DNA of 64,000 nucleotides from Naegleria gruberi (Eukaryota), in the NCBI GenBank assembly GCA_000004985.1, contig GG738895.1; one strand, written 5' to 3'. How positions within the stretch are numbered: position 1 is the stretch's first letter; every line of letters starts with the position of its first letter. Below, one piece after another: positions 23,549 through 52,142 of this stretch. Under the pieces are notes generated by a model, which was not told where the DNA came from, did not search any database, and was given only the letters and a program-made list of their open reading frames with translations. The position numbers and the translations under genes were made by a program.

Positions 23549-23620
23549 CTCCCGTGCCGGGAATTGAACCCGGATCTCCTGGGTGAGAGCCAGGTATCTT
23601 AGCCATTGGACCACACGGGA
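23549..23620 (-). tRNA. tRNA-Glu (anticodon CUC)
   Basis: Reverse complement folds as a cloverleaf: acceptor TCCCGTG/CACGGGA, anticodon stem CCTGG/CCAGG with loop CTCTCAC (anticodon CTC), T-arm GGGTTCAATTCCC. The 3' CCA is not encoded. Confidence 0.85.
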
Positions 23621-23710: not shown

Positions 23711-23782
23711 GGGGACCAGTGGGAATCGAACCCACGCCCTCTCGCACCCAAAGCGAGAATCATACCACTAGACCATGGTCCC
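23711..23782 (-). tRNA. tRNA-Pro (anticodon UGG)
   Basis: Reverse complement is GGGACCATGGTCTAGTGGTATGATTCTCGCTTTGGGTGCGAGAGG.CGTGGGTTCGATTCCCACTGGTCCCC, with anticodon loop TTTGGGT. Nearly identical to canonical eukaryotic tRNA-Pro(UGG). Confidence 0.85.
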
Positions 23783-26272: not shown

Positions 26273-26368
26273 TTTTTCTAAAATTGGAAAGAAAAAATTG
26301 TACAAAATATTTACAAATTTATTTAATAATTTAAATTACACTCGCTTCTAACTATATACTATTAATAA

Positions 26369-27831: not shown

Positions 27832-27917
27832 TGTTTACTTAACTAAAAAAATAATGCAAAAAACTCTCATCTAAATTACATCAATTTTCATATCATCATT
27901 AAACCTTAGTGGATATA

Positions 27918-30900: not shown

Positions 30901-33398
30901 TTATTGACTCGTTACAACAAGAAAACGAAAGGTTAAAACTCAGCCAACTAGAACAAGCAGAAGAAGTGGAGAGATTATCATCAGATTTGTTATCAAAAGA
31001 AAATGATATCATAAAATTGCAAGAAGAAAAAACTAAACTGGATAACGAGTTGGGTGTGCTTTCCAAACGACTAGAAGAGCTTGAAGAAGTAAATGAAGAA
31101 AAGAACAATTCTATATCTTTCTTTGTAGAACAGCACGAGTTAATATCCAACGAAATTAAGGATAAAACAAAGAATATTGAGGTTTTATTGGCAAGAGTGG
31201 ATGAATTAAAAGATTCCAAAGCTTCTTTAGAAGAAACCATTAAAGAAGTTAAACAAGATCTTGCACGTAGAATTGATTTAGTTAGCACACTAGAGAAGAA
31301 CCTCTCAGAAAAGGAATCCGAAATCCAACAATTAAAGGAAGAAAGCTTAAAGGAAATGAACTCCTTGGAAAAGAAGATAATTGATAAACAAGAAGAAATA
31401 GAAAGAATATCAATACAAGCTGAAAAACAAAAGAAGAACTTGTCTTCAACAATCCAAGATTTAGAAGAATCTTTAGCAGAAAAGGAGAAAAAGGAGAAGA
31501 AGTTGATTGGATCTTATTCAGAGACGAATATTAAAATGTCAGAACTATCAACCAAGTTAGAGGCCCTTGAGATAGAAAAGAGCAAGAATGAAAATGAAAT
31601 TGAAAGATTGATGTCTGAGTTAAGCTTAAGGGATTCAGAAATTAATCAAATGAACGAGAAGAATAAGGCCCTTGTTCAAGAGTTAGAAACCTTCTCTGAA
31701 AAATTAGATACACTGGAAAAAGCGAAAAAAAAAAGCGAAACAACTTGCTCACATCTTGAGGAACAAAAAGTGCACGACGATCAAAAACTCAAAATTCTTG
31801 GAAACGAAAGGCTGGAGTTGAAACAACAGTTAGCAAGCTTTGAAAATGAGATTACTCTCTTGAAACACAAATTAAGTCTTTTTGAAAAGAATAATTCTGA
31901 TATGAAACAAGATTTAATGAACAGTTTGGAGAATGCAGATCTGATTGAACAAGAATTAAAGCTACTCAGAATGAATTTTAAGAAAGAGAAAGAGTTATTA
32001 GAGAATCAACTTATTAATGAAGTGAATGAAAGAGATGATATGATCAAGGAACTTAAGTTGCAATTAGCAACTGACTCTTCCCTCAGAATGGAGTTGGATC
32101 AAGTTAAAGAATTATCTCACAAATCATTAACATTGTTGGATGAACAAAATGAAGAAGTTAAAAAACTTCAAATTGAAATTATTCAGTACACAAACATAAT
32201 TGATCAGTTGAAACAAGATAACGATACCAAACTTTCAGAAATGAGTGTAAATAATCAATCGCAGATAGAGGAGCTGGAAAATAGAAATAGAGAATTAGCT
32301 GAAATGAAGCTGAACTATCAAAAGCTTGAATCCATGTTCTTCCAAATGGAGAGAGACTACAGAACTTTGCAGAGTCAAGATAGCGTAATTAACAGACAAT
32401 TGGAAGAAAAATGTATCCAATTACAAACCAAACTTGAGGAGACAATTGAACCTATTACAAATAAGGAAGAAGAGCTTAAGAGATTAACTAAAGAAAATTC
32501 AGACATGAAAGATCAACTTGTTGAAAATAAGCAAATTACCGAAAAGATGGAACAAGAAATAGAAAGACTGTTAGAGCAGTTAACAACATCGAGTACAGGA
32601 GGGGGCAGCTATATGGGAGGAGACTCCAGCTTACTTTCTTCCACATCTAACACACAAAATGTTAAATCCAATAGAACAACCCAATCACCTCTCAAAACTA
32701 GCCATCTTATGCAATCAGCTACAATCGACCTCAAATATTTATGGAAGCAGCTGAGATCTGAAATTGTTAGATTGAAGCAAAAGAATGTTGAACTTGCACA
32801 ACAAATAATGCAAGTAACTAGAGCTAGAGAAGATATAATTGTTAAGTATGAAAAACAACTCAAATCTACAATGGTTGATTTGATGCACTATAAGAAAGTT
32901 GCAGAAGAAGTTGAGCAATTGAGATTAGATAATACCAGGCTAACATTAACAAAGAAAGACTCTGAGGAACAAATGAATAACCTGTCCATAAAGCTTTCGA
33001 CACTTGAGGCTGAAAAGCAAAATTTGTGGAGACTACAAGACCAAACAAGAAAGGAACTCATTAACCTTAAGGAAAATGTCATTAAACTGTCAGAAGAAAA
33101 TGAAAGACTTTCCAGAATTGAATCAAAAGCTTCAAATATTGCAAATTTGGAATTGGAAAAACTAAAAAAAGAAAAGAGGATTCTAGAAGAAAAACTCTTG
33201 TTAGCCAATGATACAAACAAAACTCAAAAAGAAACATCTCAATTAATGAACAAAATTAAGGAAGCTAGAATTACAAGAGAAAAGCTTGAAAAACTGATCC
33301 GTGACCAAAGACATCAAATTGATGAAATGGATTCTACCAATAGAGAGCTTAAACTGAAATTGCAAAATTATGAAAAGGCTGTTTCTGCACAAAATTAG
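27918..33398 (+). CDS. Giant coiled-coil protein (about 1826 aa) with short globular N-terminus
   Basis: Uninterrupted 5.5-kb ORF. Almost the whole protein is heptad-repeat K/E/L/Q-rich helix, golgin/myosin-tail-like. First ATG at 27918. Confidence 0.7.
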   Translation: MSSSRANTPSKKVQMTNEVYHSPGGTMQQLVSISDLSEKDLAKVYSCCFPKGSKFSVARCGCGYLHPFISIPSCSLQQILSNSLDHSFEKTTINEHPQKIIIRRTPQKEVSVFFDAEAADKNKTLMHNIDEGIIYQRNERKFNTNNLTANLASLLGSDDFPLNQNNNTTLPNQVQLHDRSKITSGMENLIQEFENQIKSLREQLDHITSEKKLIEVTTHTISEKASKQSEEIEKLLDEKNQQRERIHQLRKLLAKYEELSQKRDTEKNEMQNELKKLKSKFESESALSNDKLKNTIQERELEIEKLRGQISIINTVANQAADTKQELEKRENELQILQQDLHNAQMDLIGKEKAFSLISIKLENEQDLHTRSKRDVQTLSNTIQKKEKENDLLNQNLEKERGNYSLLIEKYQNLEAKFMQDQKHLARLEQDFTHNESAMEALKKKYDKVIELKEDLEKQIKAKSLELTCREEEFVRELEKRKTDYETKLKNITSQIEKLKSENTVLISKEEQLSSLQKEAESKLQEYRDKIDDLDLQIQMLKAKNQQKENELLETKLILEKTEMETREHEQKMIEQQEVLLKNICDLENENSKLVPELDQWKSSCLGFEERIKHLEEELKTAKRNYTEALEEVNSVQKKFNDMREYSDDLEKKLSDQKENMETQLVELHKENKALGEMNSNSKVIADQLKQEIKNKIDTLDSITELVKQKENSVENLFTEITNLKKLIEEKENQFSSKEEKLQSKVKELNDVIDSKTKEINVSESDMREMKSERNVLIVKYQEISRSLDQALEKNKVQNETIRDLTEKISTIEKDMSKKQSSIDNQEIEIKLLRQEIFEKDAQYHSLRTIALGDLEHKLKKKSEELENQKKNYEQDIYLLKSHLEESKTLFESKVELINELEDEITSLKNDAKEKEKEITSWLKTFDNAKDNYQKEVEELSCRINTLQEELMIKEKTLTDLEKDKLILGTELSNMEASLKVKNQELEELGSSMDIIDSLQQENERLKLSQLEQAEEVERLSSDLLSKENDIIKLQEEKTKLDNELGVLSKRLEELEEVNEEKNNSISFFVEQHELISNEIKDKTKNIEVLLARVDELKDSKASLEETIKEVKQDLARRIDLVSTLEKNLSEKESEIQQLKEESLKEMNSLEKKIIDKQEEIERISIQAEKQKKNLSSTIQDLEESLAEKEKKEKKLIGSYSETNIKMSELSTKLEALEIEKSKNENEIERLMSELSLRDSEINQMNEKNKALVQELETFSEKLDTLEKAKKKSETTCSHLEEQKVHDDQKLKILGNERLELKQQLASFENEITLLKHKLSLFEKNNSDMKQDLMNSLENADLIEQELKLLRMNFKKEKELLENQLINEVNERDDMIKELKLQLATDSSLRMELDQVKELSHKSLTLLDEQNEEVKKLQIEIIQYTNIIDQLKQDNDTKLSEMSVNNQSQIEELENRNRELAEMKLNYQKLESMFFQMERDYRTLQSQDSVINRQLEEKCIQLQTKLEETIEPITNKEEELKRLTKENSDMKDQLVENKQITEKMEQEIERLLEQLTTSSTGGGSYMGGDSSLLSSTSNTQNVKSNRTTQSPLKTSHLMQSATIDLKYLWKQLRSEIVRLKQKNVELAQQIMQVTRAREDIIVKYEKQLKSTMVDLMHYKKVAEEVEQLRLDNTRLTLTKKDSEEQMNNLSIKLSTLEAEKQNLWRLQDQTRKELINLKENVIKLSEENERLSRIESKASNIANLELEKLKKEKRILEEKLLLANDTNKTQKETSQLMNKIKEARITREKLEKLIRDQRHQIDEMDSTNRELKLKLQNYEKAVSAQN

Positions 33399-33475: not shown

Positions 33476-36400
33476 ATGTTGAAACTAAGACAACAACTCA
33501 TCAACACTGTCTTAAATTCACATTCTCCGACAGTGGGATTCAATACCTTGTTGTTTAATCATCAAACAACATCATTGGTAGGATCCACTACAACCTCATA
33601 TCGTGCTATTCATAATAATCGTGGTGGTAATAATAACTTTAGAAACAATGATAATGACAATAACAATAGAGGAGAATTTAAACCAAGATTCAACAAGCAA
33701 TATCGATCATCCGATGATGCTACTTCATCTTCAACAACTAACTTTAACAAGAATAGTGAAAATAGACGAGCACCATCTTCATCAAATAATTATTCATCTA
33801 ACAACAGGGCTTCGGATGGTACCAATGGATTCAAACAAAACCGTTTTGAAAAATCCAACAATAACTACCAAAGATCATCATACGACAATAATACTAGATA
33901 CGAAAACAAGTTTAAAAAGTACGATACTAATAATAACAATAGATTTAAACAACAAGGTGAAAGTCGCTTTGAAAAGTCTGATAATAAGTTTAAAAAGTAT
34001 GATGATAATAATGGTGATAACAACAGATTTAAACAACAAGGTGAAAATAGGGTTGAAAAGTCTGGCACTAACTACCAAAGACCTTCATACAATGGTGATA
34101 ACAACACAAGATATGAAAATAAGTTTAAAAAGTATGATGATAATGGTGATAACAACAGATTTAAACAACAAGGTGAAAATACAAGGTTTGAAAAGTATCA
34201 AAGATCATCCAATGAAGATAGAAATAACAACAATAGCTTTAGAAAGTATGACAGAGAAGAAAGGAGAGAAAGAGAGGAATTTAAGCCAAAATTCAAATCC
34301 ACAGTAGTTCCTTTTGATCAATACAAGAAACAAAACAAGACACAATCAAGTGACAAATTTTCAAGTGAATCATCACGTACTAGATCCAAGTCTCCTTATG
34401 GAACACAATCAAGGAATCAACCAAAATATGAAAGAAAGGAAAGATCCAATCCAATCTATGAATATGATGAAGAGATTGATACCCTTTTTGAAGATAATTT
34501 AACACAAAAATCTAGTAAGGGAAGAGAAAACACTCGATTCAAATCATCTATTGAGAATCATGTTGATTCATATATTAGTGGAAAAGAACAAAAACAACCA
34601 AGAAAACAAACCAAGATGGCCTATATTCCTGCAAATGAAAATGTTAGAAATATGATGAAAAAGGAAATGGACAATGATGATTTTGAAGATGATTTCCAAG
34701 ACCTTACAAGTGTTAAAAAGATTGATATGAAGAACGTCGATAAGGATACCAAGAAGAAACCAAGACAAAGAGAAATTAAAGATCCAATGAGTGATGATTT
34801 GAAATGGATTGATGAAGATGAATACATGGCCATTCGTCAAAAGGGAATGAAAAAGATCATGAACAGTAGAAATGATTCACTTTCTAAAGCCTCTTCTCAC
34901 ATCTTATCCCAATCTAGAAATAATGTCACAAAACCACTAAATGTTCCAAGCAATGTCACCTTTGTTATGGATGATTCCAGAAGTTTAACAAGAAACCAAC
35001 CAACAGAAGAAGAAATTGAGGATGATGATGAAGATGTAGTTTTCTATGGAGATGAAGACTTTGAAGAAGATGAAGATTTTGATTTTGAAGAGGATATGGA
35101 AGAAGAGGAAGAAGAAAAACCAAAAAAGAAGGGTTCAAAAAAAGTGAAAAAGGAGCAGGAAGAAGCTCCAAAAATTGATATTCTTCCAGATGCCATGGTT
35201 GGCAAGTATTTGAAACAAATACAAAAAGAAAAGATGTCAAAGAATAGAGAATTTAAGTCTTTGCCTGTTGTGAATGGAGTTGTAAAGGAAATTTTCTCTT
35301 GTGGGTTAGCATCGAAAAGAAGTTTGAAACAAGCTGAGTATCTTCAATACTTTACCAGTGATGAAGTTTCTAAAACTGATGAGGAAGCTCAATCTAGAAA
35401 TGCAATGGCTAACATGTTGGGCGGAAATAGGGTGATTGAAGCACAATTGAAGCGTCAACAAGTTGCCAGAAAGACAAACAAAACTAGTCTTGTCTACAAT
35501 CAACCAGAACTCAGAGCTGACTTGCAAGTGAAAGATGATGTTGTCAATTGGGTATTTAAAAATTACAAGATGAAATATATTGGTTCGATTGGACTTTCTA
35601 AGAAGGATGAAGAATTGCTTGCTAAGGAACTAGAACAAGAAATGCAAGAAGAAAATGAAGAAGAAAATGAAAAAGAAATTCAAGAAAAACAAGAAGAAAA
35701 CCAAGAAGAAAATGAGAATCAACGTCTAGATATTGACAAATTATCAAAGGAAGAGCTGGATGAAATTTTGGAGAAGGAAGAAAATCTCTATGACTTCTAC
35801 CGAAGAAATTTTGAGGATCAAGAAGAAGAGGAAGAAACCCAAGTAGAAAAGAAAGAAAAGAATGAAAAAGAAGAGCCTGAAACCTTGGTTAGAAAGCTCT
35901 ATGATATTTCTAGAATGCTTGAGAAATGCAAAGGAATTCCACAAGTGGCATTTGCAGGAAGATCAAATGTTGGTAAATCATCAATTATCAATGCAATTAC
36001 TGGTAGAAATAACCTCAAAGCATCTGAAAAACCTGGTCAAACAAAGGATTTGAATTTCCACAGATTTGGAAAACACTTTTGTCTGGTAGACATGCCTGGT
36101 TATGGTTTTGCCTTCACCAAGGACAGTTCTGTTACTCAAAAATGGTTGGATCTCATCAGAAATTATTTTGTACAAAGTAGTACTGATCTTAAGGTTGTCT
36201 TTTTATTGATTGATTCGCGTCTAGGACTTAAGAGAAAAGATATGGACATGATTTCATTCTTGGAAGAGAATAATGTTCCATACCAAATTGTTTTCACAAA
36301 ATGTGATTTGATGTATGTTGACGATTTGGCAAGAATGGCATTCAAAACATTCAAGATTGATCCACTCACAAAAGGCATGACATTCAAAAATCATATCAAG

Positions 36401-36556
36401 GATGAGGAAACAGGCGACTTTAGAATGGTTTTCGTGAGTTCCAGATCCAAGACAGGAGTTGCAAGATTAAAGGAGGATATCGTGCTAAGACATGCTAAAT
36501 TCGATGTTGAATCATGGAAAAAGAATGTTAAGAAGAATGTTGTACTATTTGTGTAG
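33476..36556 (+). CDS. EngB/YihA-type GTPase (GTPBP8-like) fused to an ~800-aa low-complexity N-terminal extension
   Basis: The C-terminal 200 aa carry G1 AGRSNVGKSS, G3 DMPGYG and G4 TKCD in EngB order. The N-terminus has a presequence-like start, N/D/K-rich tandem repeats and acidic E/D tracts. Confidence 0.75.
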   Translation: MLKLRQQLINTVLNSHSPTVGFNTLLFNHQTTSLVGSTTTSYRAIHNNRGGNNNFRNNDNDNNNRGEFKPRFNKQYRSSDDATSSSTTNFNKNSENRRAPSSSNNYSSNNRASDGTNGFKQNRFEKSNNNYQRSSYDNNTRYENKFKKYDTNNNNRFKQQGESRFEKSDNKFKKYDDNNGDNNRFKQQGENRVEKSGTNYQRPSYNGDNNTRYENKFKKYDDNGDNNRFKQQGENTRFEKYQRSSNEDRNNNNSFRKYDREERREREEFKPKFKSTVVPFDQYKKQNKTQSSDKFSSESSRTRSKSPYGTQSRNQPKYERKERSNPIYEYDEEIDTLFEDNLTQKSSKGRENTRFKSSIENHVDSYISGKEQKQPRKQTKMAYIPANENVRNMMKKEMDNDDFEDDFQDLTSVKKIDMKNVDKDTKKKPRQREIKDPMSDDLKWIDEDEYMAIRQKGMKKIMNSRNDSLSKASSHILSQSRNNVTKPLNVPSNVTFVMDDSRSLTRNQPTEEEIEDDDEDVVFYGDEDFEEDEDFDFEEDMEEEEEEKPKKKGSKKVKKEQEEAPKIDILPDAMVGKYLKQIQKEKMSKNREFKSLPVVNGVVKEIFSCGLASKRSLKQAEYLQYFTSDEVSKTDEEAQSRNAMANMLGGNRVIEAQLKRQQVARKTNKTSLVYNQPELRADLQVKDDVVNWVFKNYKMKYIGSIGLSKKDEELLAKELEQEMQEENEEENEKEIQEKQEENQEENENQRLDIDKLSKEELDEILEKEENLYDFYRRNFEDQEEEEETQVEKKEKNEKEEPETLVRKLYDISRMLEKCKGIPQVAFAGRSNVGKSSIINAITGRNNLKASEKPGQTKDLNFHRFGKHFCLVDMPGYGFAFTKDSSVTQKWLDLIRNYFVQSSTDLKVVFLLIDSRLGLKRKDMDMISFLEENNVPYQIVFTKCDLMYVDDLARMAFKTFKIDPLTKGMTFKNHIKDEETGDFRMVFVSSRSKTGVARLKEDIVLRHAKFDVESWKKNVKKNVVLFV
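33900..34205 (+). repeat. In-frame tandem repeat (about 3 copies of a ~90-105 nt unit encoding NKFKKYDDNGDNNRFKQQGEN...)
   Basis: Directly visible repeated DNA and protein units inside the EngB-like ORF. Confidence 0.5.
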
Positions 36557-39524: not shown

Positions 39525-42500
39525 TTATTTCAAAAATTGTAACTCTGATTCATAAGCCTTTGGTTTGAATCGTTTTGGTAGTTCATTGGTTTTGGTATCC
39601 AATAACTTGGCATTTCCATCAAGTAACATGTTATCAAAGTGGAAAACGTTATCTTCCTTTGTCTTCTTGTTTACAATATCTGTGAATCGGTTAAATTCAA
39701 TCAATGGTTTGGCAATAACAGTTTCCAATCTTGGGGCTTCACCTAGAGCATCAATAATTTCAGAGGCAGAAATACCATTTGAGAAATCTTCAGATAAATG
39801 GCTCAAAACAAATCCAACTTGGTGTTTGGTCATTTCAGGACATACCAAAGTTCTCATTTCTTCTTGCAACAAGCCTTTTTGAACAATACATACGTCAGCA
39901 ACTTGTCTGCACATGACGAAAGCTTCTTCAGAGCTAGAGGTAGATTGTCTCAAACTGTGAATAATACCTTTAGAGTTGAACCAGTTCTCAATGAATGGCA
40001 ATCTCATCTTGATTTGAATAGCAGCATTTGTGTTCATCTTGTTTTGCAAGAAGTGGTTAAAGCATACAGCGTCAAGACCAGCAGCCAAATATTCAAAGAA
40101 ATGGTTGGAAATTCTCAAATCCACGTTATTGTTATCAAATTTGGATTTAAGTTCTGATAAACTTGCAAGAACAAATTTGATATCAGCTCCAGATTCTATT
40201 TCATATTGCTTTTCAGCAAAGAGAGCTCTAATCAACTTTTCTCTAACTCTACGAATGTGTTTCATAAGTAAATATGTGTAAGCCTTTCCTAATGTATTAG
40301 CCATTGATGTGAACAAGCTCTCCCAATTGGTAATAATTTCTTCGTTTTCTTCTCCTTCTTCAAGAGGTCTACTGAAAAGTTGTGGCATGTGTGGAGGATC
40401 GAATAGTGTTTCTTCTCCAGAAGCAGTGGTCTCTCTTGGACTTCTTAATGGACTTCTATTTCTTTGCTTCTCAAAAATAACAGCAGCATCACCAGTAGAA
40501 GTAGGTTTAAGTTGTTTGAGTGCCTTTTCAACAAGAGAGGCATTCTCCTTATCGAGTCCATGGAACATGGCAAGTAATCTACAAATTGCATTAATCCAAT
40601 AAATTAATTGATCATCATTGTGGGCATTCTTGTCTACAACATAATCAAGTGCATGAGAAACATTGGTAGCGAAAAGCTTATTTACACTCTTATTCTTTTC
40701 ATCGTTAATCTTCCACTTGTTAAGACATAGGAACAAAATTTTAACAGGAGTTGGAATTCTGCTATTCAAAACTTCAAAGGTTTGCACGTGTAAAATAGCT
40801 GACTCGACAACAAATCTTTGAACATCTAAAAGTTTGGATTGTTGAATGTAGGTGTCCATCTTTTCTTTAAGAACCTTTGCTTCTTCTTCCATCTTGGCCA
40901 TAGCTTCCTTGAGTACTGTTTCATTTTCACTCTTTTCATTAACTCCATTTTGCAAGTTATTAATTTCTTGGTTGCGCTTTTCAATAATCGAATCCAATTC
41001 ATTCATTGTAGTAACTTTTTGTTCCAGTTCTTGAGATTTTTCTGATAACTCTTGCTCCTTGGATTGAATGTTGTTAACAAGATTTTGTAAATCTTTTTCT
41101 CTAGTTTCAAGTTCTGTCTTTAGAGTTTGAATTTGCTCCTCTTGTTCAGTGACAGCTTGTGATTTTTGTACAAGTTCTTCATCAAGTTTGCTGAGTTTTT
41201 GTTCAAGTAATTCTGCTTCGGCTTGCTTTTCTTGAATCTTGTTATGAGCGTCTTGGAGTTGATTATTGAGATCAGATATTTCCTTTCCTTGTTGTTCAGT
41301 ACTTTCCAAAAGAGTACCTCTTTCTTGTTCGAGATCTCTCTTTTCTTTTTCAAGCTTTTCTAACTTTTCATCCATTTCATATTTCAATCTATTGAGAGCA
41401 TCTTCACTATTGACTTGAAGTCCCAAAAGTTCTCTGAGTTCATCTTGCTTGTTCTTCAACTCTTCGTCCTTTGATGAAATGATTCTGTCTTTTTCAGAAA
41501 TAGTTTTTTCGAAATCAGCAAGTTTTTCATGCAAACTCTCAAATTGCTTATTGAGGAATGATTGTTTGGCTTCTTCAGCGCTAGATGATTCTTCATTATT
41601 ATTGACTAAAGTACCGATCTTTGAGATGATATCTGCAATATTCTTGTTGTACTGTTCTTCTTTTTCTTCAATAACTTTGTTAAGACCTTGGGCCTTTTCG
41701 TCTTGCTCCTTTACTTGTTGTTGCAATTTTTCAACCACTAAATTGCTAGCATCCAACTCAGTGGTTACTCTTTCTTGCTTTTCTTTCAGGGTTTCAATTC
41801 TATTTTCCAGAGAAAGAACAATCTCCTTTGATTTAAATAGATCATTGATAGCTTCATCACGTTCTTGGATGGTTGTGGCCAATTGATTAGATTGTTCTGC
41901 GGAGGCATTCTTGAGTTTAGAAATTTCCTCTTCCAGTTGTTCAATACTTGCTTCTCTTTCGCTCAAAGATGCTTCAGCTCTATACTTGTCTTGGGTTACT
42001 TCGTTGAGTTGAGCTTTAGTAGTGTTGAGGTCATTATTGAGAGAATCAATTTGTTCATTCAAAGACTTAATATCCTTTTCTAAGGAGTCCGATTCTTCTT
42101 TTGCGGATACAAGTTTAGTCTCCAGAGATTCTTTTTCTTGAGTAAGACTTGAAATAATCTCTTCCTTGTGAGAGACTGACTTTGACAACAACATATTTTG
42201 GTGTTGATTGTCAGTAACATCATCTTCAAGTTTGGAGATTGATTCTCTGAGTTGAGCAATAATGATACCGAGATCCTTCTTCTCAACTTCAGCATTTTGA
42301 AGAATTTCAATCTTTTCTGATTCTAATTTTTCAAGTTTTTCAAGAGTTGAATCTTTTTCTTTGGTGATATCTTCAGCCAATTTTTTACTGGTGGCCAGTT
42401 GTTCACCAATTTCCTCCTTTGCTCTTCTTGTTTGTTTCAACTGTTCAGCAATTTCATCTTTCTCTTGATTGGCAATTTTGAGTGATTCTTGTGCCTTGTT

Positions 42501-45500
42501 CAATTCTTGGAGGAGCTTGTTGCCCATTTCTTCCTTTTCATTGATACTGGCCTCAAGAAGAGATTGTTTTTCTTTTTCTAAACTTTCAATCTTTGATTCA
42601 AGATCGATGATTTGACCCTTGTATTGTTCTCCATCTTCATTGGCATTCTTTAACTCTTGTTGAAGACTCTTGATGGTTTCTTCAAGTTGAGATTTTTGAC
42701 TTTCCAATTGGGTAACCTTGTTGCCCATAACTTCCTTTTCATTAAAGCTAGTTTCAAGAAGAGATTGTTTTTCCTTTTCCAAATTTTCAATCTTTGATTG
42801 AAGTTCAGTGATTTGACCCTTGTATTGTTCTCCATCTTCTTTGGCATTCTTGAGTTCTTGTTGGAGACTCTTGATAGTTTCTTCAAGTTGAGATTTTTGG
42901 GTATGAAGATCTGAATTGTCTTTCTCTATTCTAGAGATATTTTCATCCTTTAGGGAAATAATGTGCAACATTTCATCCTTTTGAGAGAGGGTAGAGTCAA
43001 GAAGTGATTGTTTTTCTTTTTCTAAGACTGCAATCTTCTTGTTAAGATCTGAAATTTGGCCTTTGTATTCCTCTCCATCTTCCTTGACTTTGTTAAGCTC
43101 GTCTTGAAGATTTTCAATCAATGTTTCAAGTTGAGCCTTTTGCTCATCTACTTGTTCTTTGTCTTTTTGGACCCTTTCGACCACTTGTTGTATGGTTTCA
43201 ACTTTTTGGTTTAATTCTTGAACCTTATTTTCAGCCAATAAGTGTTTCTTTTGGAGTTCTTCCAATTCTGAGGAGCTTGTTCTTAATTTCTTGGTAAATT
43301 CAAGAATTTCTAAGTCAGCTTTTTCTTTCTCTTGTTCCAATGATTCAAGCTCTTGTTCGAGCTCGTTACGTTCAGTCTTAATACCCTCTAGTTCCTTACC
43401 AAGTGATTCATACTTTTCGGAGAGTTCTGAATGTCTTGTTTGCAAAGATTCGAACCTGGACACTTGTGATGCAATTTCTTCAACTTTTTCCTTAATTTGA
43501 TTCAACAGGTCTTCCTTTTCTTCTGAATGAGCAGTTTCAAGATTCTTCTTTTCGGTCTCCAAGCTTTCTAATTGAATAATGACACCAGATAGTTTTTCGA
43601 CAGTGACATCCTTTTCTTCTCTCTCGGTAGCCAATGCAGACTTTGTAACTGATATTTCAGCCTTTAAACGCTCAATCTCTTTTTCTAATTCATCCTTAGC
43701 TGAAGCTTGTATTTCTATTTCTCTCTTCAAGCTTTTGATTTCCTCCTCATTTTGTTGGAGAAGTTTCAAAAGCTCTTCTTGTTTGCTCTTGAGTTCAATT
43801 TCCTTGTCATGTATGGCTGAGTCCTTTTCAGTAAGGAATGATTGGATAGCGATCAGTTGTTCTTTGAGATTGATGATTTCATTAGTGAGGCCATCCTTTT
43901 GATTAATTAAAAGTTCAATAACACTATCAGCAGAGTCACTATCTGTGCCAACAATCTTTGAAAGCTTACTGACCAAAGAGGTAATTTCATTCTTGTACTT
44001 AGCTTCTTGTTCAGAAAGGTTGGTGTTGAGTGTATCGATATTCTCCTCCTTGTTTTGAAGTTCAGACTTGAGGGCTTCAATTTGCTTCTTGCTTGCCTCA
44101 ACATCTCCATTCAATTCTGCAACTGATGACTCGAGCTTGGCAATAGAAGATTCCATTTCCACTATCTTGTCTTGCTTTTCTCTAATGCTTTGGACTTGCT
44201 CTTCAACTTGAGATTCTAATCCTTGTATGAGTTCTTGTTTGGCATTGATGTCAGATAAATGTTTTTCAATGGCGTCTTGCTTTTCTCTGAGAGTATTCAG
44301 GTAAGAATCATTGCTTTGATCAGTTTCGGATCTGAGCAAAGTAATTTGCTCCAACAATCCTTCCTTTTCCCTTTGGAGGGAACCAATATCTTCCTTTGAT
44401 TTTTCTAAATTGGAAATAACTTCGGTAAGCTCCACCTTGATGGAAGCCAATGATTCATCTAGTGTTTTCTTTTCCTCAACCAACTTATCAATAGAATCTT
44501 GTTTTTCATTGACAGATTTAGACAAAATAAGGGATTGATGTTGATTTTCAGTAACATCATCTTCAAGTTTGGAGATTGATTCTCTGAGTTGAGCAATAAT
44601 GATACCGAGATCCTTCTTCTCAACTTCAGCATTTTGAAGAATTTCAATCTTTTCTGATTCTAATTTTTCAAGTTTTTCAAGGGTTTCAGTCTTCTCCTTG
44701 AGTAAACCTTCATTTTCAGTGGAAATTTGGGAAATTTCTTGTTCAAGATCCTCCTTTGCTCTTCTTGTTTGTTTCAACTGTTCAGCAATTTCATCTTTCT
44801 CTTGATTGGCAATTTTGAGTGATTCTTGTGCCTTGTTCAATTCTTGCAAAAGTCTGTTACCAGCTTCTTCCTTTTCATTGATACTGGCCTCAAGAAGAGA
44901 TTGTTTTTCTTTTTCTAAACTTTCAATCTTTGATTCAAGATCGATGATTTGACCCTTGTATTGTTCTCCATCTTCATTGGCATTCTTTAACTCTTGTTGA
45001 AGACTCTTGATAGTTTCTTCAAGTTGAGATTTGTGACTTTCCAATTGCTCCTTGTCTTGTTCAATTCTATTGATACTATCATCCTTTGAGTTGATGATGC
45101 TATTCAATTCTTGAATCTTATTTTCAGCCAATAAGTGTTTCTTTTGGAGTTCTTCCAATTCTGAGGAGCTTGTTCTTAATTTCTTGGTAAATTCAAGAAT
45201 TTCCAAGTCAGCTTTTTCTTTTTCTTGCTCCAAGGATTCAAGCTCTTGTTCGAGCTCGCTACGAGCATTCTTGATATTCTCCAATTCCGTTTCAAGAGCA
45301 CTATTTGAAGTTCTAAGCTCATTAATCTCAGTATCTTTGTTTTGCATTTGTTCTAGCATGTTATTGAGCTTGTCTACAGTTGTATCTTTCTCTTCTCTTA
45401 TGGTTCCAAGTTGCTCTCTGAGTTCTGAAATTTCTTGTTTCAACTTTTCAATTTGGTCATCCAGGGTAGTATGGTGGTCGAGGGCTTGGGCGAGTTTTTC

Positions 45501-48500
45501 TTGATTGATCTTGAGATCCTTTTCTATTTCGTTCATTCTTTCCTCACGTTGAGCGATACTATTAGATAAAGATTCCTTTTCTTGTGAGGAAGATTCTCTT
45601 AGTAACTTTAAGGACTCTTCTAATTCTTCAATCTTAGTCTCTAGTAAAACTATCGTTTCTTGTTTCTTGGTATTTTCTTGTTCAACGATAATAATCTTCT
45701 CTCCAAGAGTTTGCTTGTCGGATTTTGTTTGAGAAAGCTCTTCGGAAAGAGTATTGTTTTCTTCCTTTACGTGTTTCAATTTCTCTTTGGTTTCTTCCAA
45801 CTCTTTCAACAAGGAACCTTCCTTAAGATCAGAGCTAGAAAGAAGACTGTTCTTCTCTTGAGTAAGGGTTTCAACTTGTTTGTTTAGTGAAATAATTTCC
45901 ACTTCATTCTCCTTAATTTTCTCTGAAAGCTTGGACTTCTCAGAGATATGTTTTTCTAGTTCTCTAGTCTTTTCTTCAATAAGGTTTGTCAGGTCTGTCA
46001 ACTTCTTGTCTGCATCACTTGAGAGAGATTCGAGTTCTGAAATTCTACCTGCTGAGGTTTGCAATTGTGAAGTAGACTCAGCGAGTTGATCTTCTAGCTG
46101 CTTCTTTGCTTCCTCCAATTGTTGCAGTTTGTCAGCAAGTTGATTCTTTTCGGAAAGTAATTCACTAATTTGACTAGAAAGAGTATCAGAGCCTTGACCC
46201 AATCTTTCCAATTCATCCTTAGTTCTTTCTAAACTTTGGCTTGTTTCTTCCAACTTTTGTTTGTATTCTAATACTTGTTTATCCAATTGTTCATGAGCAC
46301 TAATTTCTTTAGAAAGTTCTTGTTCCTTTTGTTGAATAGTTGCAGAAAGTTCTTTTCTCTCCTTTGTCAATAAATCTTCAATGTCGTTCTTTTCTTTTTG
46401 AATCTTTTCAATTCTTTGCAGCAATCCTGAAACCTCTGATGATGTATTTTCTTTATCACTTGTAATAAGTTTTAATTGCTCTTCTAAATTGGAAATATTG
46501 GACAAGGCTCTTTCGAGATCAACCTTGAAAGTATCTCTTTCTTGGACAGTACCTTCGAGTTCTTGTTCCTTGTCCTGTAGCGATTTGGAAACTTGTGCAG
46601 ATTTTTCTTGTTCACTCTTCAGAGATTCTTCAAGGGTAGTAACTCTGGATTTGATTTCTACCAATTCCGTTGCTAGGTTTTTCTTTTCATCGTTAAGTTC
46701 AGAGACCTTTTGTTGTGATTCGGTGAGATTTTGTTTTAGTTCCTCGATAGTGGAATTGAGAGAAGTTATTGTTTTCTCGAGGTCATCTGATTTTTGCTTG
46801 AAATCCTCAATTTGAGATTCAAGCTCTTCATTTTGTTTTCTAACAGATTCGACTTCCTGACTGACTTTGGAAAGTTTCTCATCTAATGACCCATTTTGCA
46901 CCTTCAATGATTCATATTCTTGCAACAAGTTATTCAGCTTTTCCTTATGTTCTGACAATTCTTTGAAGAATGTTTCTTTCTCCTTTTCGGTTTGAGAAAG
47001 AACTTCCTTAGTTCTATTCATTTCATTTTGAAGGTTAATATACAGCGAATCCTTTGTTTCAGAATCATTAAGATTTTGATCTTGCAAATCTTTAAGTTGC
47101 TTCTTAATCGATTCAATCTCATTAAGAGATTTTTCTTTTTCATCACGAGTTTGTTCCAATGTCTTATTAATATTTACAAGTTCTTGTTGTGTATCTTGTA
47201 ATTGCTTTTCTAAAGATAGCTTCTCGGTGGAATGCTGTTCAATAGTTGTATTGTTCTGATTAACAAGATCTTCATATTTTTGGGAAAGGGTGTTATACTC
47301 CTTTTCTTGATTGTCTTTGTTTTCATTTAGACTGGAAATAGTAGCTTCTAACGATGAAATTTGTTGAGTTAAAGAAGAAACCTTATCTTGCAAATCAACT
47401 TTTGCTTTAGTTTCGGCTTCAATCTCGCTCTCTCTGGTCTTTAACTCCTTTCTAAGATTGGATTCCTTTTCAGAAACGTCAGAAAGGTTTGATTCAAGAC
47501 TTGAAATCTTTTCAGACATTTGCTTAACCTCATTGTTGAGTCTTTCCTTCTCTCTATTTGCCTCATCAAGTTGTTGCTCTTTTTGCTTAATATTGTTCAT
47601 CAGTTCTTGTGATAAACTTTCTTGACTTGCCAAGGAAGTAGTAATAAGTTGATTCTTTTCATTCTCGAGTTGAGTAACTTTTTCATTCAGTAACTTGATT
47701 TCACTTTCAAGTTCAACCTTATCCTTTTTGACTTGATCTAATTCTGAATCAATTCTACTGTTAAACTCAACTAACTCCAAATTGGTTTGCTTGATTGCAT
47801 TTAACTTTAGAAGAAGAAGATCTGTCATTTTATGCAACTCTTCTTGAATTTGATCCGGATGAATCTTTTCAAACTCGTTACTCTTGCTATGGTTAATAAA
47901 TTCGTCACTTAATTTGGTGGCTTCTTTAATCTTCTTCTTGAAGTCATTGTCTTCAGTCACTTGAGTCATAGCTTCTTCCAGTTTCTTCTTCAGCTTGTTG
48001 AATTCTTGAATACATGACAACAAAATTTCATGTTCCTTGTTGGTCTTTTGGAGATTATGATTAGTCTTCTCAAGTTGAGTAGTAATTTCTGATTTTTCCT
48101 TCAAAATCTTTTGAATAGATTCGTGATTCTCGTTATCTTCTTTTTCTTTCAACTTCTTCAAGCTTTCAAGTTCAGATCTGATAATCTCAATATCTTTTTC
48201 TTTTGAAGATGCTTCACTTTCATAATGCTTCTTCAAGAATTATAGTGTTTCCATATTTTTTAAAACTTACCTTAAGTCTTGTGAGCTCTGAATTTAACTC
48301 TTCATTTGTATGCTTGAGTTGTTTAACATTTTCTTCGAGATTATGAGATTTATCCTCTGATGCCTTCAACTTTAGAGAAACTGATGAAACCTCCTCTTGT
48401 ATTTCCTCAATACGACCTTCATACTCACGACTAGATTTTTCCTTCTCTGCATTATTTTCCTGAATAATGTCATCCTTTCTGGAAGATTCCTGTTTCAAGT

Positions 48501-49701
48501 TTTCAATACTTTCCTCCAAGGATTTAATTTGTTTTTGAAGTGTTTCCTTTTGTTCTTGCAAGGTATCAGATTCTGCTTCCATCTTTTAACATTATTAGAA
48601 ACATTGTTAAAATGTTGAAACCTACCTCTTCAAGCTTATCTTTTGTTTGCTTGATTTGTTGTTCATACTTTTGTTGGGCTTGTTTCGATTTGAGTTGAAT
48701 CTCAAACAATTTGCTGTCTGCCTCTTGTTGGGCTTCTTGGGCACGATCATATTCTTCCCTAAGATTTTTAGCTTCCTCCTGAATAATTCTCAACTTTTCC
48801 TCGAGTTCATCTCTTTCCTTTGCAATTTGAGATACTATGGATGTCTTGTCATCCCCTTCAAGCTCTTTAATACGTTTCTGAAGGGATTCTATTTGTTCAC
48901 GTAACTCTCCAACAATATTTTCCTCAGCAAGTGATCCTCTGCTGAGTATGAAGGAACCTCCATTTCTAGGTGTTCCATAATCCTGTTAATAATAAACAAA
49001 TATTATAATTTCCAAAATCTATATGTAAACATACATTGTGAGTGGCTTCATCTTCCTCTTCTCCATTATCTCCTCCTGTATATGTACTAACTCCATCAAA
49101 ATCATCATCACTATCAACCAATATATTGATCATCATTTGTTCAATTTAAAAACTTACAGTCCGGGAACATTTTTCAAGCATCTTGAATTGATGACAATTT
49201 TAAGTTTAGCTTTTCCGACAGGTTTTGGGATAACCAAGCTGAGTTCCTTTGTTTGTGTAACTTCCTCACTTTCATTAACAAATTGACCAAGATCAAGTTC
49301 CTCCTTTACCAAAACAGTATCTTTTGATTGGTGTGTTTTGTTATTTGTAACTCTTTCCTCAAGAGTAAGTACTAAATCCTTCTTTTGAAAAACACCCTTC
49401 TTTTTGACAAGTGTACCATTAAACTTGAAAGTAGTATTCCAAGTCACTCTTTCTCTGTCAATTTTGGTGTATGGTGTTTCACCTTTACGTTTCTTACCTC
49501 TCTTCCAATGAACCTATAAACAAATATAAGAAATTCCATTTGATTATTTAAAAAACATACTGCATAAAACACATCTTCATCAGGTGTTGGTTGACGAGAT
49601 AAACTTGAATTTTTAAAATCAAAGAGGTGATCAACAGACAAATTAAATTGGAATTTAACATTTTCCTTTCCACCTCCAAGGAAAGATTTCTTTTTCAACA
49701 T
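39525..49701 (-). CDS. Giant NT-C2 / coiled-coil / DIL (dilute) domain protein, about 3315 aa, 6 exons
   Basis: Exons are 49701..49561, 49513..49158, 49110..49035, 48982..48626, 48582..48271 and 48230..39525, totalling 9948 nt in frame, with 41-52 nt introns. The N-terminus is an NT-C2-type C2 domain, followed by about 2500 aa of heptad coiled coil. The C-terminal ~400 aa look like a myosin-V-type DIL cargo-binding domain. Confidence 0.75.
42080..45300 (-). repeat. Near-identical intragenic segmental duplications inside the giant coiled-coil exon
   Basis: Stretches of 100-300 nt at about 42180-42900 recur almost base-for-base at about 44515-45050, and 43230-43380 recurs at 45128-45280. Protein blocks such as SQLEETIKSLQQELKNA.EDGEQYKGQI occur 4 times, and RSELEQELESLEQEKEKADLEILEFTKKLRTSSSELEELQKKHLLAENK occurs twice. 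Confidence 0.65.
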
Positions 49702-50133
49702 GTTGTTGTTATTGGTGGTGATTGTACTAGTAGTGTATATAAATTAATAATAAATAAATTAAAACGCCTAAATTCTCTCCAAAAATTTCCAATAGTAATT
49801 AATTCTAACTATCAACACTCCAAATGTAAAACAGAAGCGTTCTCCAGTTTCCTAAATACTCTTGATGATGATACTTAATCAAAAAGCCTACTGATGCTTC
49901 CCGATGAGGATGATGAAAATTTTTTTTAAAAAGGCTTGAAGGATTAATTTGCTTGTTGATAGCTGTTGTGATCCAAAGTTTATTTTCTGCCACTCCGACA
50001 CCTGCTATTTGGAACTCAAATAGATTTTAAAAATAAATTTAAATTTTTTTAAAATATCAAATTGGATATTTGTTTTTGGTAAAATTGCCCCTTGTCAAAG
50101 GCAAGTGACATTTTAATAGAAAATTGAAATTCT

Positions 50134-51965
50134 TTAATGTTTGTCAACAACCATAGTCTTGGCATTACACCATTCAAGAATACCTTCAGAACCACATTCT
50201 CTACCATAACCACTTTCCTTAACACCACCGAATGGCATTTCTGGGCTTGATCTAACAACACCATTAACAAAGGCCATACCACATTCAAGTTTTTCAGCAA
50301 TCTTGGAAGCTTTCTTGACATCCTTACTATAAACACTACCACCAAGACCATAGATGCTTTCATTAGCCAATTGAACAGCATGATCAGCATTTTCAGCAGC
50401 AACAACAACGAAAACTGGTCCAAAGAGTTCATTATGGAATGCAAAATTATCAGTTGTAACATTTGACAAAACAGTTGGTTGATAGAAGAAACCATTGCTC
50501 AATTCACCTGACAAACTAGCCTTAGAACCACCAGCCAAAACCTTAGCACCTTGACTAACACAGAGTTTAACTTGATCATCCAATTTGTCCATCAAATCTT
50601 TTCTGGCCATTGGACCAACATCATTACCTCTAACAAGTGGATCACCCAATTTTAAGCTCTTAACCTTTTCAGCGAGCATTTTTTCAAATTGTGGAAGAAC
50701 TTCCTTTTCAACAATTAATCTCTTAGCAGCAATACAAGTTTGTCCACAATTGTTAATTCTTGAAACAACAGCATTCTTGACAGCAAGTTCCAAATCGGCA
50801 TCCTTAAGAACAATGAAAGCATCAGCACCTCCCAATTCCAAAACGTGCTTCTTAAGATTGGAAGCAGCTTGGCTGGCAATAATTTTACCAACTTGAGTAC
50901 TACCAGTGAATGCAACACCACGAATCTTATTGTGACTAATAGTAGTACTAACTTGTTGATTTTCAAGGAAGACATTTTGATAAATCTTGTTCAATTCAGA
51001 TGGAGCACCACTTTAAGAATGATGTTAACATTTTTTGTAAAATTATAATGAACTACATACGCTTTAGCAAGAGCTTCTTCAAATAAATCTTGAATTGATT
51101 TAGCACAAGTGGGAACTTGGTGATTGTGTCTAATCATAACAGTGTTACCAGCCATCATTGCAGGAACACAGAATCTAATAACTTGCCAGTATGGGAAATT
51201 GCTAATTAAATTGAAAATAAACACATTCACATTACAGAGTACAACTACTTACAATGGGGCACATTGAAGAACTGGTCCAAGTGGTTGGTAGACAACTCTA
51301 CTGAACATCTTTTCATTATCAAAAACAACCTTATCACGCAAAACACTTTCAGAAGTCTTGACATAATATCTGATGAGAGATGCACACTTTTCAGCTTCAG
51401 CAACACCTTGAGCAACTGGTTTACCCATATCCAAAGCCATCATTTTAGCTAATTCTTCCTTGTGAGCTTCGAATGCATCAGCAAGTGGATTCATGATTTG
51501 AGAACGCCATTGAATTAATTCAGCAATTTCCTTTGGATTTTCTATTTTGTTAATTCCACAATAATTTCGTTATTATTAATTATTATTATTTGTTGTTTGT
51601 CGTTGATGATAATTTAAATTATTCACATCACAAATTCCACATCAATTTAAAATCCAAAATTCCATCATCGTCATCACAAAATAATTCCGAAACCTCTAGT
51701 ATATAAAAACGTCCTCCATCTAAAACAACCTACCTGAGTATAATTGTGGATTCCAAGCTTGGAATGACTTCCAACTTTCTTGAATAGCTTGTTCCAATTG
51801 TTGATCAGAAAGACATTCAAATTGTTTGGTCAACTTTCCGTTAGTTGGATTGATAGAATTATAGTGAGTGTTCAACTTGGAGCTAGTGGAAAAACACTTG
51901 TCATTGCTTGAAGCAACTTTTCTCAATTGATTTAATGCTGAAGAAGCCTTCTTTGATTGATTCAT
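50134..51965 (-). CDS. Aldehyde dehydrogenase, succinate-semialdehyde dehydrogenase-like, 512 aa, 4 exons
   Basis: Exons 51965..51734, 51541..51253, 51201..51061 and 51010..50134 total 1539 nt in frame. ALDH motifs: PWNFP-like FNFPYWQ, ELGG (LELGGADA), catalytic Cys region NCGQTCIAAKR, Glu region PFGGVKESGYGRE. Introns are 192, 51 and 50 nt. Confidence 0.85.
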
Positions 51966-52142
51966 TTTTTTAATTGCAATTTTTGTGGGGAGTTTTTGCA
52001 ATTCAATTTCAATTATTGCTCAATAGTTAATTGAGAAATGAGGTTGAAGATCATGTTCAAATTGAATTGTTGTAAAAAGTAACAATTTCAACACTGTAAA
52101 TTACAACCCAAATACAGCCCCAATTTTCCAACAATTTAAAAA

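What the first reader, a model, noticed from the sequence alone, without database searches (positions are those of the whole stretch)
42080..45300. Very recent intragenic duplications (near 100% nucleotide identity) within the giant coiled-coil exon
Blocks of several hundred bp are repeated almost identically about 2.3 kb apart (for example 42241-42380 vs 44577-44715, 42411-42510 vs 44749-44845, 43230-43380 vs 45128-45280). Some peptide modules occur four times. This indicates ongoing expansion by unequal crossing-over. It is also a likely hotspot for assembly collapse or expansion errors.
Basis: seen in the sequence. Interest (0 to 1): 0.5.

Follow-up and report, generated by a model that had tools for sequence, protein, structure and literature searches.

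The report
Patchily homogenised repeats in giant coiled-coil gene
A 3,315-residue coiled-coil tether gene of an amoeba-like eukaryote carries an old internal duplication, parts of which look freshly copied because recombination between the two copies keeps four short stretches identical; this is real but ordinary gene evolution.

Summary
The repeats are real and are the strongest self-similarity in the window, but they are not several hundred bp at about 100% identity. Two collinear segments share modules X, linker, R, Y, V and Z. They are copy A (about 44436-45464) and copy B (about 42099-43688). Copy B has three R units (243- and 201-nt tandem steps) and copy A has one. This explains the two offsets (1893 and 2337 nt) and the four-fold peptide. 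BLASTN identity is 90.8% over 520 nt and 77.9% over 408 nt.

The identity is mosaic. Four perfect tracts of 87, 98, 134 and 147 nt end sharply against patches at 47-61% identity. The outer flanks are still recognisably homologous (about 52% nt, 45% aa, dS saturated). The tandem units R2 and R3 have dS of about 0.58.

I read this as an old intragenic duplication plus tandem amplification, with patchy gene conversion. A single very recent duplication does not fit.

The host gene has six exons and is on the minus strand. It encodes an N-terminal NT-C2 domain, a coiled coil of about 2,650 residues and a myosin-V-type cargo-binding tail, with no motor. Its nearest relatives are heterolobosean (Willaertia, Naegleria), and the Willaertia homologue lacks these repeats. 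I could not test for assembly error or strain variation. Interest is low to moderate.

The parts
39525..49701 (-). Host gene. Six exons: 49701-49561, 49513-49158, 49110-49035, 48982-48626, 48582-48271, 48230-39525. Five GT-AG introns of 40-52 nt. The spliced ORF is 3,315 aa.
   Evidence: The spliced model translates without an internal stop. The exons are collinear with the Willaertia magna protein P0001 by tblastn. An independent metagenome contig, L006, is 99.89% identical to 47321-49970.
49158..49701 (-). NT-C2 (N-terminal C2) domain, encoded by exons 1 and 2
   Evidence: Pfam PF10358, 50.5 bits against a cutoff of 25.2, E = 2e-13. This region is 56% identical to the N-terminus of the Willaertia protein P0001.
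39525..48230 (-). Giant terminal exon. It is an almost uninterrupted coiled-coil rod followed by the globular tail.
   Evidence: The ORF 39525..48236 is 2,903 aa. Hydrophobic periodicity peaks at 3.52 residues with power 16 against a background of about 1. There is 1 Pro in 2,440 aa, and E+L+K make up 44%. The only Pfam hits are sub-threshold coiled-coil families.
39801..40775 (-). Myosin-V/XI-type globular tail (cargo-binding, DIL) domain
   Evidence: Pfam DIL PF01843, 41.9 bits against a cutoff of 24. A family profile (A1) hits the globular tails of myosin Vb, Va, Vc, XI and Myo2 in the PDB, with E down to 5e-24.
44436..45464 (-). Copy A of the duplicated segment (ORF residues about 925-1267). 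Modules: diverged upstream flank, X, linker, one R unit, Y, V, Z, diverged downstream flank.
42099..43688 (-). Copy B of the duplicated segment (ORF residues about 1517-2046). The module order is the same as in copy A, but with three R units (R1, R2, R3).
45117..45257 (-). Module X, copy A (ELEQELESLEQEKEKADLEILEFTKKLRTSSSELEELQKKHLLAENK). The partner in copy B is 43224-43364, at offset 1893 nt.
   Evidence: The perfect 87-nt tract is 45117-45203 = 43224-43310.
43224..43364 (-). Module X, copy B
44853..45029 (-). R unit of copy A (59-codon core). It is 96% identical to R3, 85% to R2 and 69% to R1.
   Evidence: The perfect 147-nt tract is 44865-45011 = 42528-42674.
42960..43136 (-). R1, the most diverged R unit of copy B (68-71% nt identity to the others)
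42516..42899 (-). Tandem array of R2 (core 42717-42893) and R3 (core 42516-42692). Period 201 nt (67 codons), 88% identity, dS 0.58, dN/dS 0.21.
   Evidence: TRF, BLASTN, dN/dS
44751..44852 (-). Module Y, copy A (LLQELNKAQESLKIANQEKDEIAEQLKQTRRAKE). The partner in copy B is 42414-42515.
44685..44750 (-). V patch, copy A. It is 22 codons long. Its partner, 42348-42413, has the same length, but the two are almost unalignable (47% nt, 18% aa).
   Evidence: No other donor for this patch exists in the window.
44535..44684 (-). Module Z, copy A (TLEKLEKLESEKIEILQNAEVEKKDLGIIIAQLRESISKLEDDVTxNQHQ). The partner in copy B is 42198-42347.
   Evidence: The perfect 134-nt tract is 44548-44681 = 42211-42344.

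Best explanation
The rod-encoding exon of a giant NT-C2 / coiled-coil / myosin-V-tail gene contains an old intragenic segmental duplication. Each copy is at least about 1 kb, and both are in frame.

Inferred history:
1. The segment duplicated within the exon.
2. In the downstream copy (B), the linker-plus-R unit was amplified in tandem, first as an 81-codon unit and then as a 67-codon unit. Unequal exchange or replication slippage is the likely mechanism.
3. The two copies then drifted apart almost to saturation.
4. Non-reciprocal homologous recombination (gene conversion, intrachromosomal or between sister chromatids) has kept or made four tracts (modules X, R, Y and Z) identical, including at synonymous sites.
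5. Intervening patches (the linker and V) escaped conversion and stayed diverged. This is what gives the mosaic.

Shown directly: the repeat anatomy, the extreme clustering of differences, the residual homology of the flanks, the preserved reading frame, and dN/dS below 1.

Inferred: the order of events, conversion as the mechanism, and the functional effect. The likely effect is to lengthen the rod. At 0.1485 nm per residue, the duplicated segment adds about 50 nm and the two extra R units about 22 nm, in a rod of about 0.39 micrometre. Each R unit is 4 mod 7 residues long, so each also adds a heptad register shift.
For: - Collinear modules sit at offsets of 1893 and 2337 nt. The 444-nt difference equals 243 + 201 nt, the two extra R units.
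- Four perfect tracts of 87-147 nt contrast with a permutation null whose longest run averaged 32 nt and never exceeded 87 in 20,000 trials. The four longest runs sum to 466 nt, against a null maximum of 190.
- Within the tracts the codons are identical. The adjacent patches are nearly all nonsynonymous differences.
- The flanks outside the tracts remain significantly homologous: far upstream 52% nt and 45% aa, downstream 53% nt and 47% aa, against null values of 31% and 10% (P <= 4e-4). The upstream-flank match scores E = 2.5e-12. Their dS is saturated.
- R2 against R3 gives dS 0.58 and dN/dS 0.21, so the tandem step is not recent and the units are under purifying selection.
- The R unit of copy A is 96% identical to R3, but its upstream linker resembles the R2 linker (61% nt). 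It is therefore a recombinant mosaic.
- The pattern of heptad register shifts is shared between the two copies.
- The closest homologue found, from Willaertia, has no internal repeat at E < 1e-8 and no homologue of modules X, R, Y or Z. Its rod is about 1,000 aa, against about 2,650 aa here.
- Segment-specific, long-lasting conversion and intragenic homogenisation are documented elsewhere (PMC2720389, PMC3933166).
Against: - There is no outgroup or second strain for the repeat zone. The classical test, paralogues closer within a species than orthologues between species, could not be run (searches found nothing).
- The direction and number of conversion events are unknown.
- Conversion normally needs flanking homology, yet the flanks are now about 50% identical. 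The model therefore needs continuous maintenance of the tracts, or one discontinuous event.
- The perfect tracts are about the length of a short sequencing read. A polishing artefact cannot be excluded without reads.
Confidence: 0.68

Rival explanations
1. A single, very recent duplication by unequal crossing-over created copy A or copy B, and the copies have barely diverged. Expansion is ongoing.
For: There are perfect tracts of up to 147 nt. A tandem 201-nt array lies in the same place. The copies are collinear and in frame.
Against: Uniform post-duplication mutation cannot produce 117 differences packed into patches next to 466 nt with none. The V patch, the linker and the flanks are at 47-61% nt identity with saturated dS. 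The tandem units themselves have dS 0.58.
Confidence: 0.08
2. This is an assembly or polishing artefact. The true locus has diverged paralogous segments or a different copy number. Mis-mapped reads during consensus polishing, or a mis-join, made some stretches identical.
For: The perfect tracts (87-147 nt) are about read length. Repeats 2 kb apart are a classic problem for assemblers. Public short-read metagenome assemblies of the same species yielded contigs for the 5' end of the gene, but no protein from the repeat zone is on record.
Against: The 8.7-kb reading frame is intact through both copies. Module order and heptad register shifts are coherent between the copies. The tract borders coincide with module borders. 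Each copy has its own unique flanks and copy-specific variants. The adjacent 2.65 kb is confirmed at 99.89% by an independent assembly.
Confidence: 0.12
3. One complex replication-based event (template switching, as in MMBIR or FoSTeS) copied several discontinuous pieces from one old paralogous segment into the other. There was no ongoing gene conversion.
For: The mosaic has sharp borders and equal-length unconverted patches. Short similarity lies at the R-unit junctions (QLESxK against QELNKA).
Against: The tracts differ in how many isolated differences they carry. Module X has several synonymous singletons, while the R and Z tracts have none. This suggests events of different ages. The outcome cannot be told apart from discontinuous conversion with the present data.
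Confidence: 0.12

Closest known systems
Intragenic concerted evolution of long repeats, for example the aciniform spidroin AcSp1 of Argiope (PMC3933166)
   Same: Long in-frame repeat units within one exon stay near-identical at the nucleotide level through intragenic recombination, under purifying selection.
   Different: Spidroin repeats form a long, uniform tandem array with more than 98% pairwise identity throughout. Here there are two dispersed copies plus a three-unit tandem array. Only four 87-147-nt tracts are homogenised, and the rest is diverged.
Segment-specific, long-lasting gene conversion between old paralogues (BMP8A/B, DDX19A/B, TUBG1/2; PMC2720389)
   Same: Stretches of homogeneity are embedded in otherwise old, diverged duplicates, and conversion is confined to particular segments.
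   Different: Those cases are separate genes and were tested with orthologues from many species. Here the paralogous segments lie 1.9-2.3 kb apart within one exon, and no outgroup was available.
Myosin V/XI tails (coiled coil plus globular cargo-binding domain)
   Same: The C-terminal domain is homologous to the whole globular tail (profile E = 5e-24 to myosin Vb, and hits to myosin XI and Myo2). It is preceded by a dimerising coiled coil.
   Different: There is no motor domain. The N-terminus is an NT-C2 domain, and the rod is roughly five to ten times longer than in a myosin V. The myosin V rod length is from my own knowledge.
EHBP1 / EHBP-1 (NT-C2, CH and coiled-coil bMERB domains; PMC4894640, PMC7442826)
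   Same: An N-terminal NT-C2 domain, which binds membranes in EHBP-1, is coupled through a long linker to a C-terminal module that engages trafficking machinery.
   Different: The window gene has no CH or bMERB domain. Its C-terminus is a myosin-V-type tail and the linker is a giant coiled coil. A Willaertia paralogue (P0021) appears to carry an N-terminal CH domain, judged from its sequence and not tested.
Intragenic segmental duplications in giant structural genes such as nebulin and titin (from my own knowledge, not checked here)
   Same: Blocks within a giant, modular structural gene are duplicated in frame, nearly identical and copy-number variable, and they are troublesome for assembly.
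   Different: Those are multi-exon blocks in vertebrates at about 99% identity throughout. This case is within one exon and is mosaic.

Membership tests
Intragenic duplication with concerted evolution (gene conversion) | Two or more collinear, in-frame paralogous segments within one gene | tested here: met
   Modules X, linker, R, Y, V and Z occur in the same order in copies A and B, and the frame is preserved.
Intragenic duplication with concerted evolution (gene conversion) | Identical tracts significantly longer than expected from the overall divergence (a GENECONV-type criterion) | tested here: met
   Perfect runs of 147, 134, 98 and 87 nt, against a null with mean 32 and maximum 87 in 20,000 permutations.
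Intragenic duplication with concerted evolution (gene conversion) | Identity extends to synonymous sites, so protein-level selection alone cannot explain it | tested here: met
   Codons are identical across the tracts. In the flanks dS is saturated.
Intragenic duplication with concerted evolution (gene conversion) | Paralogous tracts are more similar within a species than the orthologous tracts are between species | not testable with these tools
   No second genome containing the repeat zone could be retrieved. The Willaertia homologue lacks the modules.
Tandem repeat generated by unequal exchange or slippage | Head-to-tail copies with a constant period | tested here: met
   TRF gives period 201, 1.9 copies and 88% matches over 42516-42899. 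A further 243-nt step leads to R1.
Tandem repeat generated by unequal exchange or slippage | Copy-number polymorphism between strains | not testable with these tools
   Metagenome contigs of the same species stop at 47321.
Alpha-helical coiled-coil rod | Heptad-type hydrophobic periodicity over the whole length, with almost no helix breakers | tested here: met
   A 3.52-residue peak with power 16.2 against a background of about 1. There is 1 Pro and 39 Gly in 2,440 aa.
NT-C2 domain proteins (Pfam PF10358) | Match above the Pfam gathering score | tested here: met
   50.5 bits against 25.2.
DIL / myosin-V globular tail domain (Pfam PF01843) | Match above the Pfam gathering score, and homology to solved globular tail domains | tested here: met
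   41.9 bits against 24. The profile hits PDB globular tails at E = 5e-24.
Class V/XI myosin | N-terminal myosin motor domain and IQ neck | tested here: not met
   No myosin head was found in the giant exon or in the N-terminal exons, which encode NT-C2. The 3,315-aa model leaves no room for a motor. Exons 3-5 were not scanned separately.

The most novel reading that the evidence does not exclude
The gene may represent an uncharacterised family of motor-less NT-C2 / coiled-coil / myosin-V-tail tethers, centred on Heterolobosea. Rod length in this family seems evolutionarily plastic: related family members range from 834 aa in Naegleria and 1,730 aa in Willaertia to 3,315 aa here. Under this reading, recombination-prone internal repeats act as a length-tuning device. 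The modules kept identical (X, R/Y and Z) would be duplicated binding sites that selection keeps the same through conversion.
Probability: 0.2. Interest if true: 0.45.

Novelty: new member of a known kind. Interest (0 to 1): 0.25.

Why it matters
- It corrects the dating of the duplication. Near-identity here reflects sequence exchange and does not mark a young duplication, so repeat identity would mislead any age estimate.
- It documents how a giant coiled-coil rod grows: by in-frame segmental duplication plus 67/81-residue tandem units that each carry a register shift.
- It flags 42.1-45.5 kb as a place where assemblies and read mapping need checking.
- The host gene architecture (NT-C2, a rod of about 0.39 micrometre, and a myosin-V cargo-binding tail without a motor) is apparently undescribed in the searchable literature. 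It may interest cell biologists who study membrane tethers in Heterolobosea.

Tried and rejected
Searches that found nothing:
- The word-indexed protein search found nothing with the C-terminal domain or with the repeat zone, ORF residues 900-2200.
- Exact-product look-ups of neighbouring ORFs failed.
- A single-sequence search of the tail domain against the PDB gave only noise. The profile search worked.
- Two JGI metagenome scans, one with copy B and one with the tail domain, found no relatives. No strain or species comparison of the repeats was therefore possible.
- Literature searches for NT-C2 plus DIL or globular tail, for the project accession PRJEB11402, and for heterolobosean dilute-domain proteins found nothing relevant. 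The Zhang & Aravind C2 paper is not held.
- Self-BLASTP with a single subject reported only the trivial self hit. I replaced it with split queries.

Ideas rejected:
- A donor elsewhere in the window for the diverged patches: none was found.
- Generic coiled-coil similarity as the explanation: the background between unrelated rod segments is 31% nt and 10% aa identity in register, and about 25% in gapped BLASTP alignments.
- A structured RNA or other feature hidden in the tracts: Rfam finds only two tRNAs, far away.
- A false haplotype duplication: the segment between the copies is not duplicated, and the copies have saturated patches.
Full report
**Observation**

A repeat search of 39-49 kb found four direct-repeat families in exactly the flagged interval. 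The self-BLASTN hits were:

| Segment 1 | Segment 2 | Identity | Columns |
|---|---|---|---|
| 42198-42710 | 44535-45047 | 90.8% (717 bits, E = 0.0) | 520 |
| 42997-43403 | 44890-45296 | 77.9% | 408 |
| 42516-42698 | 42717-42899 | 88.5% | 183 |
| 42731-42951 | 44867-45087 | 82.8% | 221 |

In a both-strand self-comparison of all 64 kb, these are the strongest hits. The repeats are therefore real and not due to chance or heptad periodicity.

This is partly because the stated registers are slightly off and run into diverged patches. 'Several hundred bp at near 100%' is an overstatement. The longest near-identical block is 300 nt at 96%.

**Host gene**

The repeats lie in a 2,903-codon ORF on the minus strand, 39525..48236. 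Upstream frames continue the protein across short GT-AG introns.

A six-exon model translates into one uninterrupted protein of 3,315 aa. The exons are 49701-49561, 49513-49158, 49110-49035, 48982-48626, 48582-48271 and 48230-39525. The introns are 40-52 nt. Full-length numbering equals ORF numbering plus 412.

- The N-terminus is an NT-C2 domain (PF10358, 50.5 bits against a cutoff of 25.2).
- The C-terminus carries a DIL domain (PF01843, 41.9 against 24). A profile of the family's C-terminal domains hits the complete globular cargo-binding tails of myosin Vb, Va, Vc, XI and Myo2 in the PDB, with E down to 5e-24.
- In between lie about 2,650 residues of coiled coil. The hydrophobic periodicity peaks at 3.52 residues with power 16 against a background of about 1, and there is a single proline in 2,440 residues.
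- There is no motor domain.

An exhaustive HMMER search of 1.84 billion representative proteins found only 50 relatives of the tail domain. The best is a 1,730-aa Willaertia magna protein, 40% identical in the tail. All but one of the named hits are heterolobosean: Willaertia, Naegleria lovaniensis, N. fowleri and Acrasis kona. The exception is the amoebozoan Clastostelium. The Willaertia protein is collinear with the window gene from the NT-C2 domain to the tail.

The source genome itself is not in the protein collections. The same species does occur in metagenome run ERR1078381. One contig from that run is 99.89% identical to 47321-49970, and another is 98.4% identical to 50003-53081. A related species in run SRR636569 is 77-78% identical at the neighbouring gene.

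**Anatomy of the repeats**

At the protein level there are two collinear segments with the module order X, linker, R, Y, V, Z.

- Copy A (ORF residues about 985-1245) has one R unit.
- Copy B (about 1616-2024) has three. R1 follows an 81-codon step (243 nt) and R2/R3 a 67-codon step (201 nt). TRF gives period 201 and score 621 for the R2/R3 array.
- The two extra units (444 nt) account exactly for the difference between the X offset (1893 nt) and the R/Y/Z offset (2337 nt).
- Pairwise nucleotide identity of the R cores is 96% for A against R3, 88% for R2 against R3, 85% for A against R2, and 68-71% for R1 against the rest.
- Both unit lengths are 4 mod 7. A register trace shows a shift at each unit, and the same -1/+3 shift pattern at the Y and Z modules of both copies.

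**Mosaic identity**

I aligned A and B codon by codon over 783 collinear columns. There are 117 differences, but they are extremely clustered. The four perfect tracts are:

| Tract length | Copy A | Copy B |
|---|---|---|
| 147 nt | 44865-45011 | 42528-42674 |
| 134 nt | 44548-44681 | 42211-42344 |
| 98 nt | 44749-44846 | 42412-42509 |
| 87 nt | 45117-45203 | 43224-43310 |

With the same number of differences placed at random, the longest identical run averaged 32 nt and never exceeded 87 in 20,000 trials. The four longest runs sum to 466 nt, against a null maximum of 190.

Inside the tracts every codon is identical. At their borders the sequence switches abruptly to patches where almost every codon differs nonsynonymously. 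Two such patches are the 22-codon V patch and the 24-codon linker, which have the same length in both copies.

Beyond the tracts, homology persists at a very low level:

| Region | nt identity | aa identity | Significance |
|---|---|---|---|
| Far-upstream flank (A 925-979, B 1517-1571) | 52% | 45% | BLASTP E = 2.5e-12 |
| First 30 codons downstream | 53% | 47% | P <= 4e-4 |
| V patch | 47% | 18% | P about 0.01 (nt) |
| Null, random in-register rod segments | 31% | 10% | |

dS is saturated in the flanks. It is 0.58 between the tandem units R2 and R3 (dN/dS 0.21). It is 0.12-0.17 in the homogenised blocks when their edges are included, and zero in the perfect runs. No alternative donor for the diverged patches exists in the window.

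**Interpretation**

A single recent duplication followed by random mutation cannot produce this pattern. The best account has three steps:

1. An old in-frame segmental duplication of at least 1 kb (A about 44436-45464, B about 42099-43688).
2. Tandem amplification of the R unit in copy B, by unequal exchange or slippage.
3. Non-reciprocal recombination (gene conversion) that homogenised, or has kept homogeneous, four tracts, while the linker, the V patch and the outer flanks escaped and diverged.

The R unit of copy A is itself recombinant. Its core matches R3, while its upstream linker resembles the R2 linker (61% nt).

The tracts carry different numbers of isolated differences. X has several synonymous singletons, and R and Z have none. 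This hints at more than one event.

Segment-restricted, long-lasting conversion between old duplicates, and intragenic homogenisation of long repeats, are both documented (PMC2720389, PMC3933166).

The Willaertia homologue has no internal repeat at E < 1e-8 and no counterpart of the modules. Its rod is about 1,000 residues. The expansion is therefore specific to the lineage of the window organism.

By inference, taking 0.1485 nm per residue, the duplication adds about 50 nm and the two extra R units about 22 nm to a rod of roughly 0.39 micrometre. This fits a long tether with a membrane-binding NT-C2 domain at one end and a cargo or Rab-binding tail at the other.

**Rivals**

- An assembly or polishing artefact cannot be excluded without reads. 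The perfect tracts are about read length, and the public short-read assemblies of the same species supplied no protein from the repeat zone. Against it, the 8.7-kb frame is intact, module order and register shifts are coherent, and the adjoining 2.65 kb is independently confirmed.
- A one-step template-switching event would give a similar mosaic. It cannot be distinguished from discontinuous conversion here.

**What could not be done**

No second copy of the repeat zone could be retrieved from another strain or species. The within-species against between-species test for concerted evolution was therefore not run, and neither was the test for copy-number polymorphism. Literature searches found no description of NT-C2 / coiled-coil / globular-tail proteins.

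**Verdict**

The feature is an ordinary kind of event: intragenic duplication with patchy concerted evolution in a coiled-coil rod. It sits in an uncharacterised but recognisable gene architecture. Interest is low to moderate.

Noticed in passing
window 27909-33398 (+): A second long coiled-coil ORF of 1,829 aa lies next door. It shows the same 3.52-residue periodicity (power 14.5) and has no Pfam domain. It has no nucleotide-level internal repeats.
   Followed up: partly
window 33846-34196 (+), inside ORF 33476-36556: Tandem and near-tandem repeats (84-nt period, 77-91% identity) sit in the N-terminal part of a 1,026-aa protein whose C-terminus is an MMR_HSR1-type GTPase.
   Followed up: no
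window 18587-18863 (+), inside ORF 18566-19609: A degenerate GGT/AGA (Gly-Arg) repeat array encodes the N-terminal region of a fibrillarin gene (PF01269, 338 bits). This explains the local GC and GC-skew peak.
   Followed up: partly
window 23549-23620 and 23711-23782 (-): Two adjacent tRNA genes, tRNA-Glu(CTC) and tRNA-Pro(TGG), were found by both ARAGORN and Rfam.
   Followed up: yes
window 47321-53081; loci L002, L003, L006, L007: Metagenome run ERR1078381 (PRJEB11402) contains the same species: 99.9% identity over 47321-49970 and 98.4% over 50003-53081. The contigs of both its assemblies (ENA and Logan) that run in from the 50-53 kb side end at 50003, and the ENA contig L006 on the other side begins at 49970, just upstream of the giant gene's start codon. 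Run SRR636569 holds a related species at 77-78% nt identity.
   Followed up: partly
window 50134-50994 (-): This is an exon of an aldehyde dehydrogenase. The database is prokaryote-heavy, so this may mean nothing.
   Followed up: no
window 16092-18116 (+): A 674-aa ORF matches ribosomal protein S9 only in its last 120 residues (PF00380). The 550-residue N-terminal extension is unexplained.
   Followed up: no
window 24737-26305 (-): A 522-aa ORF carries at least four DUF4116 repeats (184 bits), a domain of unknown function.
   Followed up: no
locus L001 and proteins P0021, P0173: The myosin-V-type tail occurs in Heterolobosea with different N-termini and very different rod lengths. N. fowleri has NT-C2 plus tail in 834 aa. 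Willaertia P0021 appears to have a CH-like N-terminus plus coiled coil plus tail in 1,197 aa, judged by eye and not tested.
   Followed up: partly
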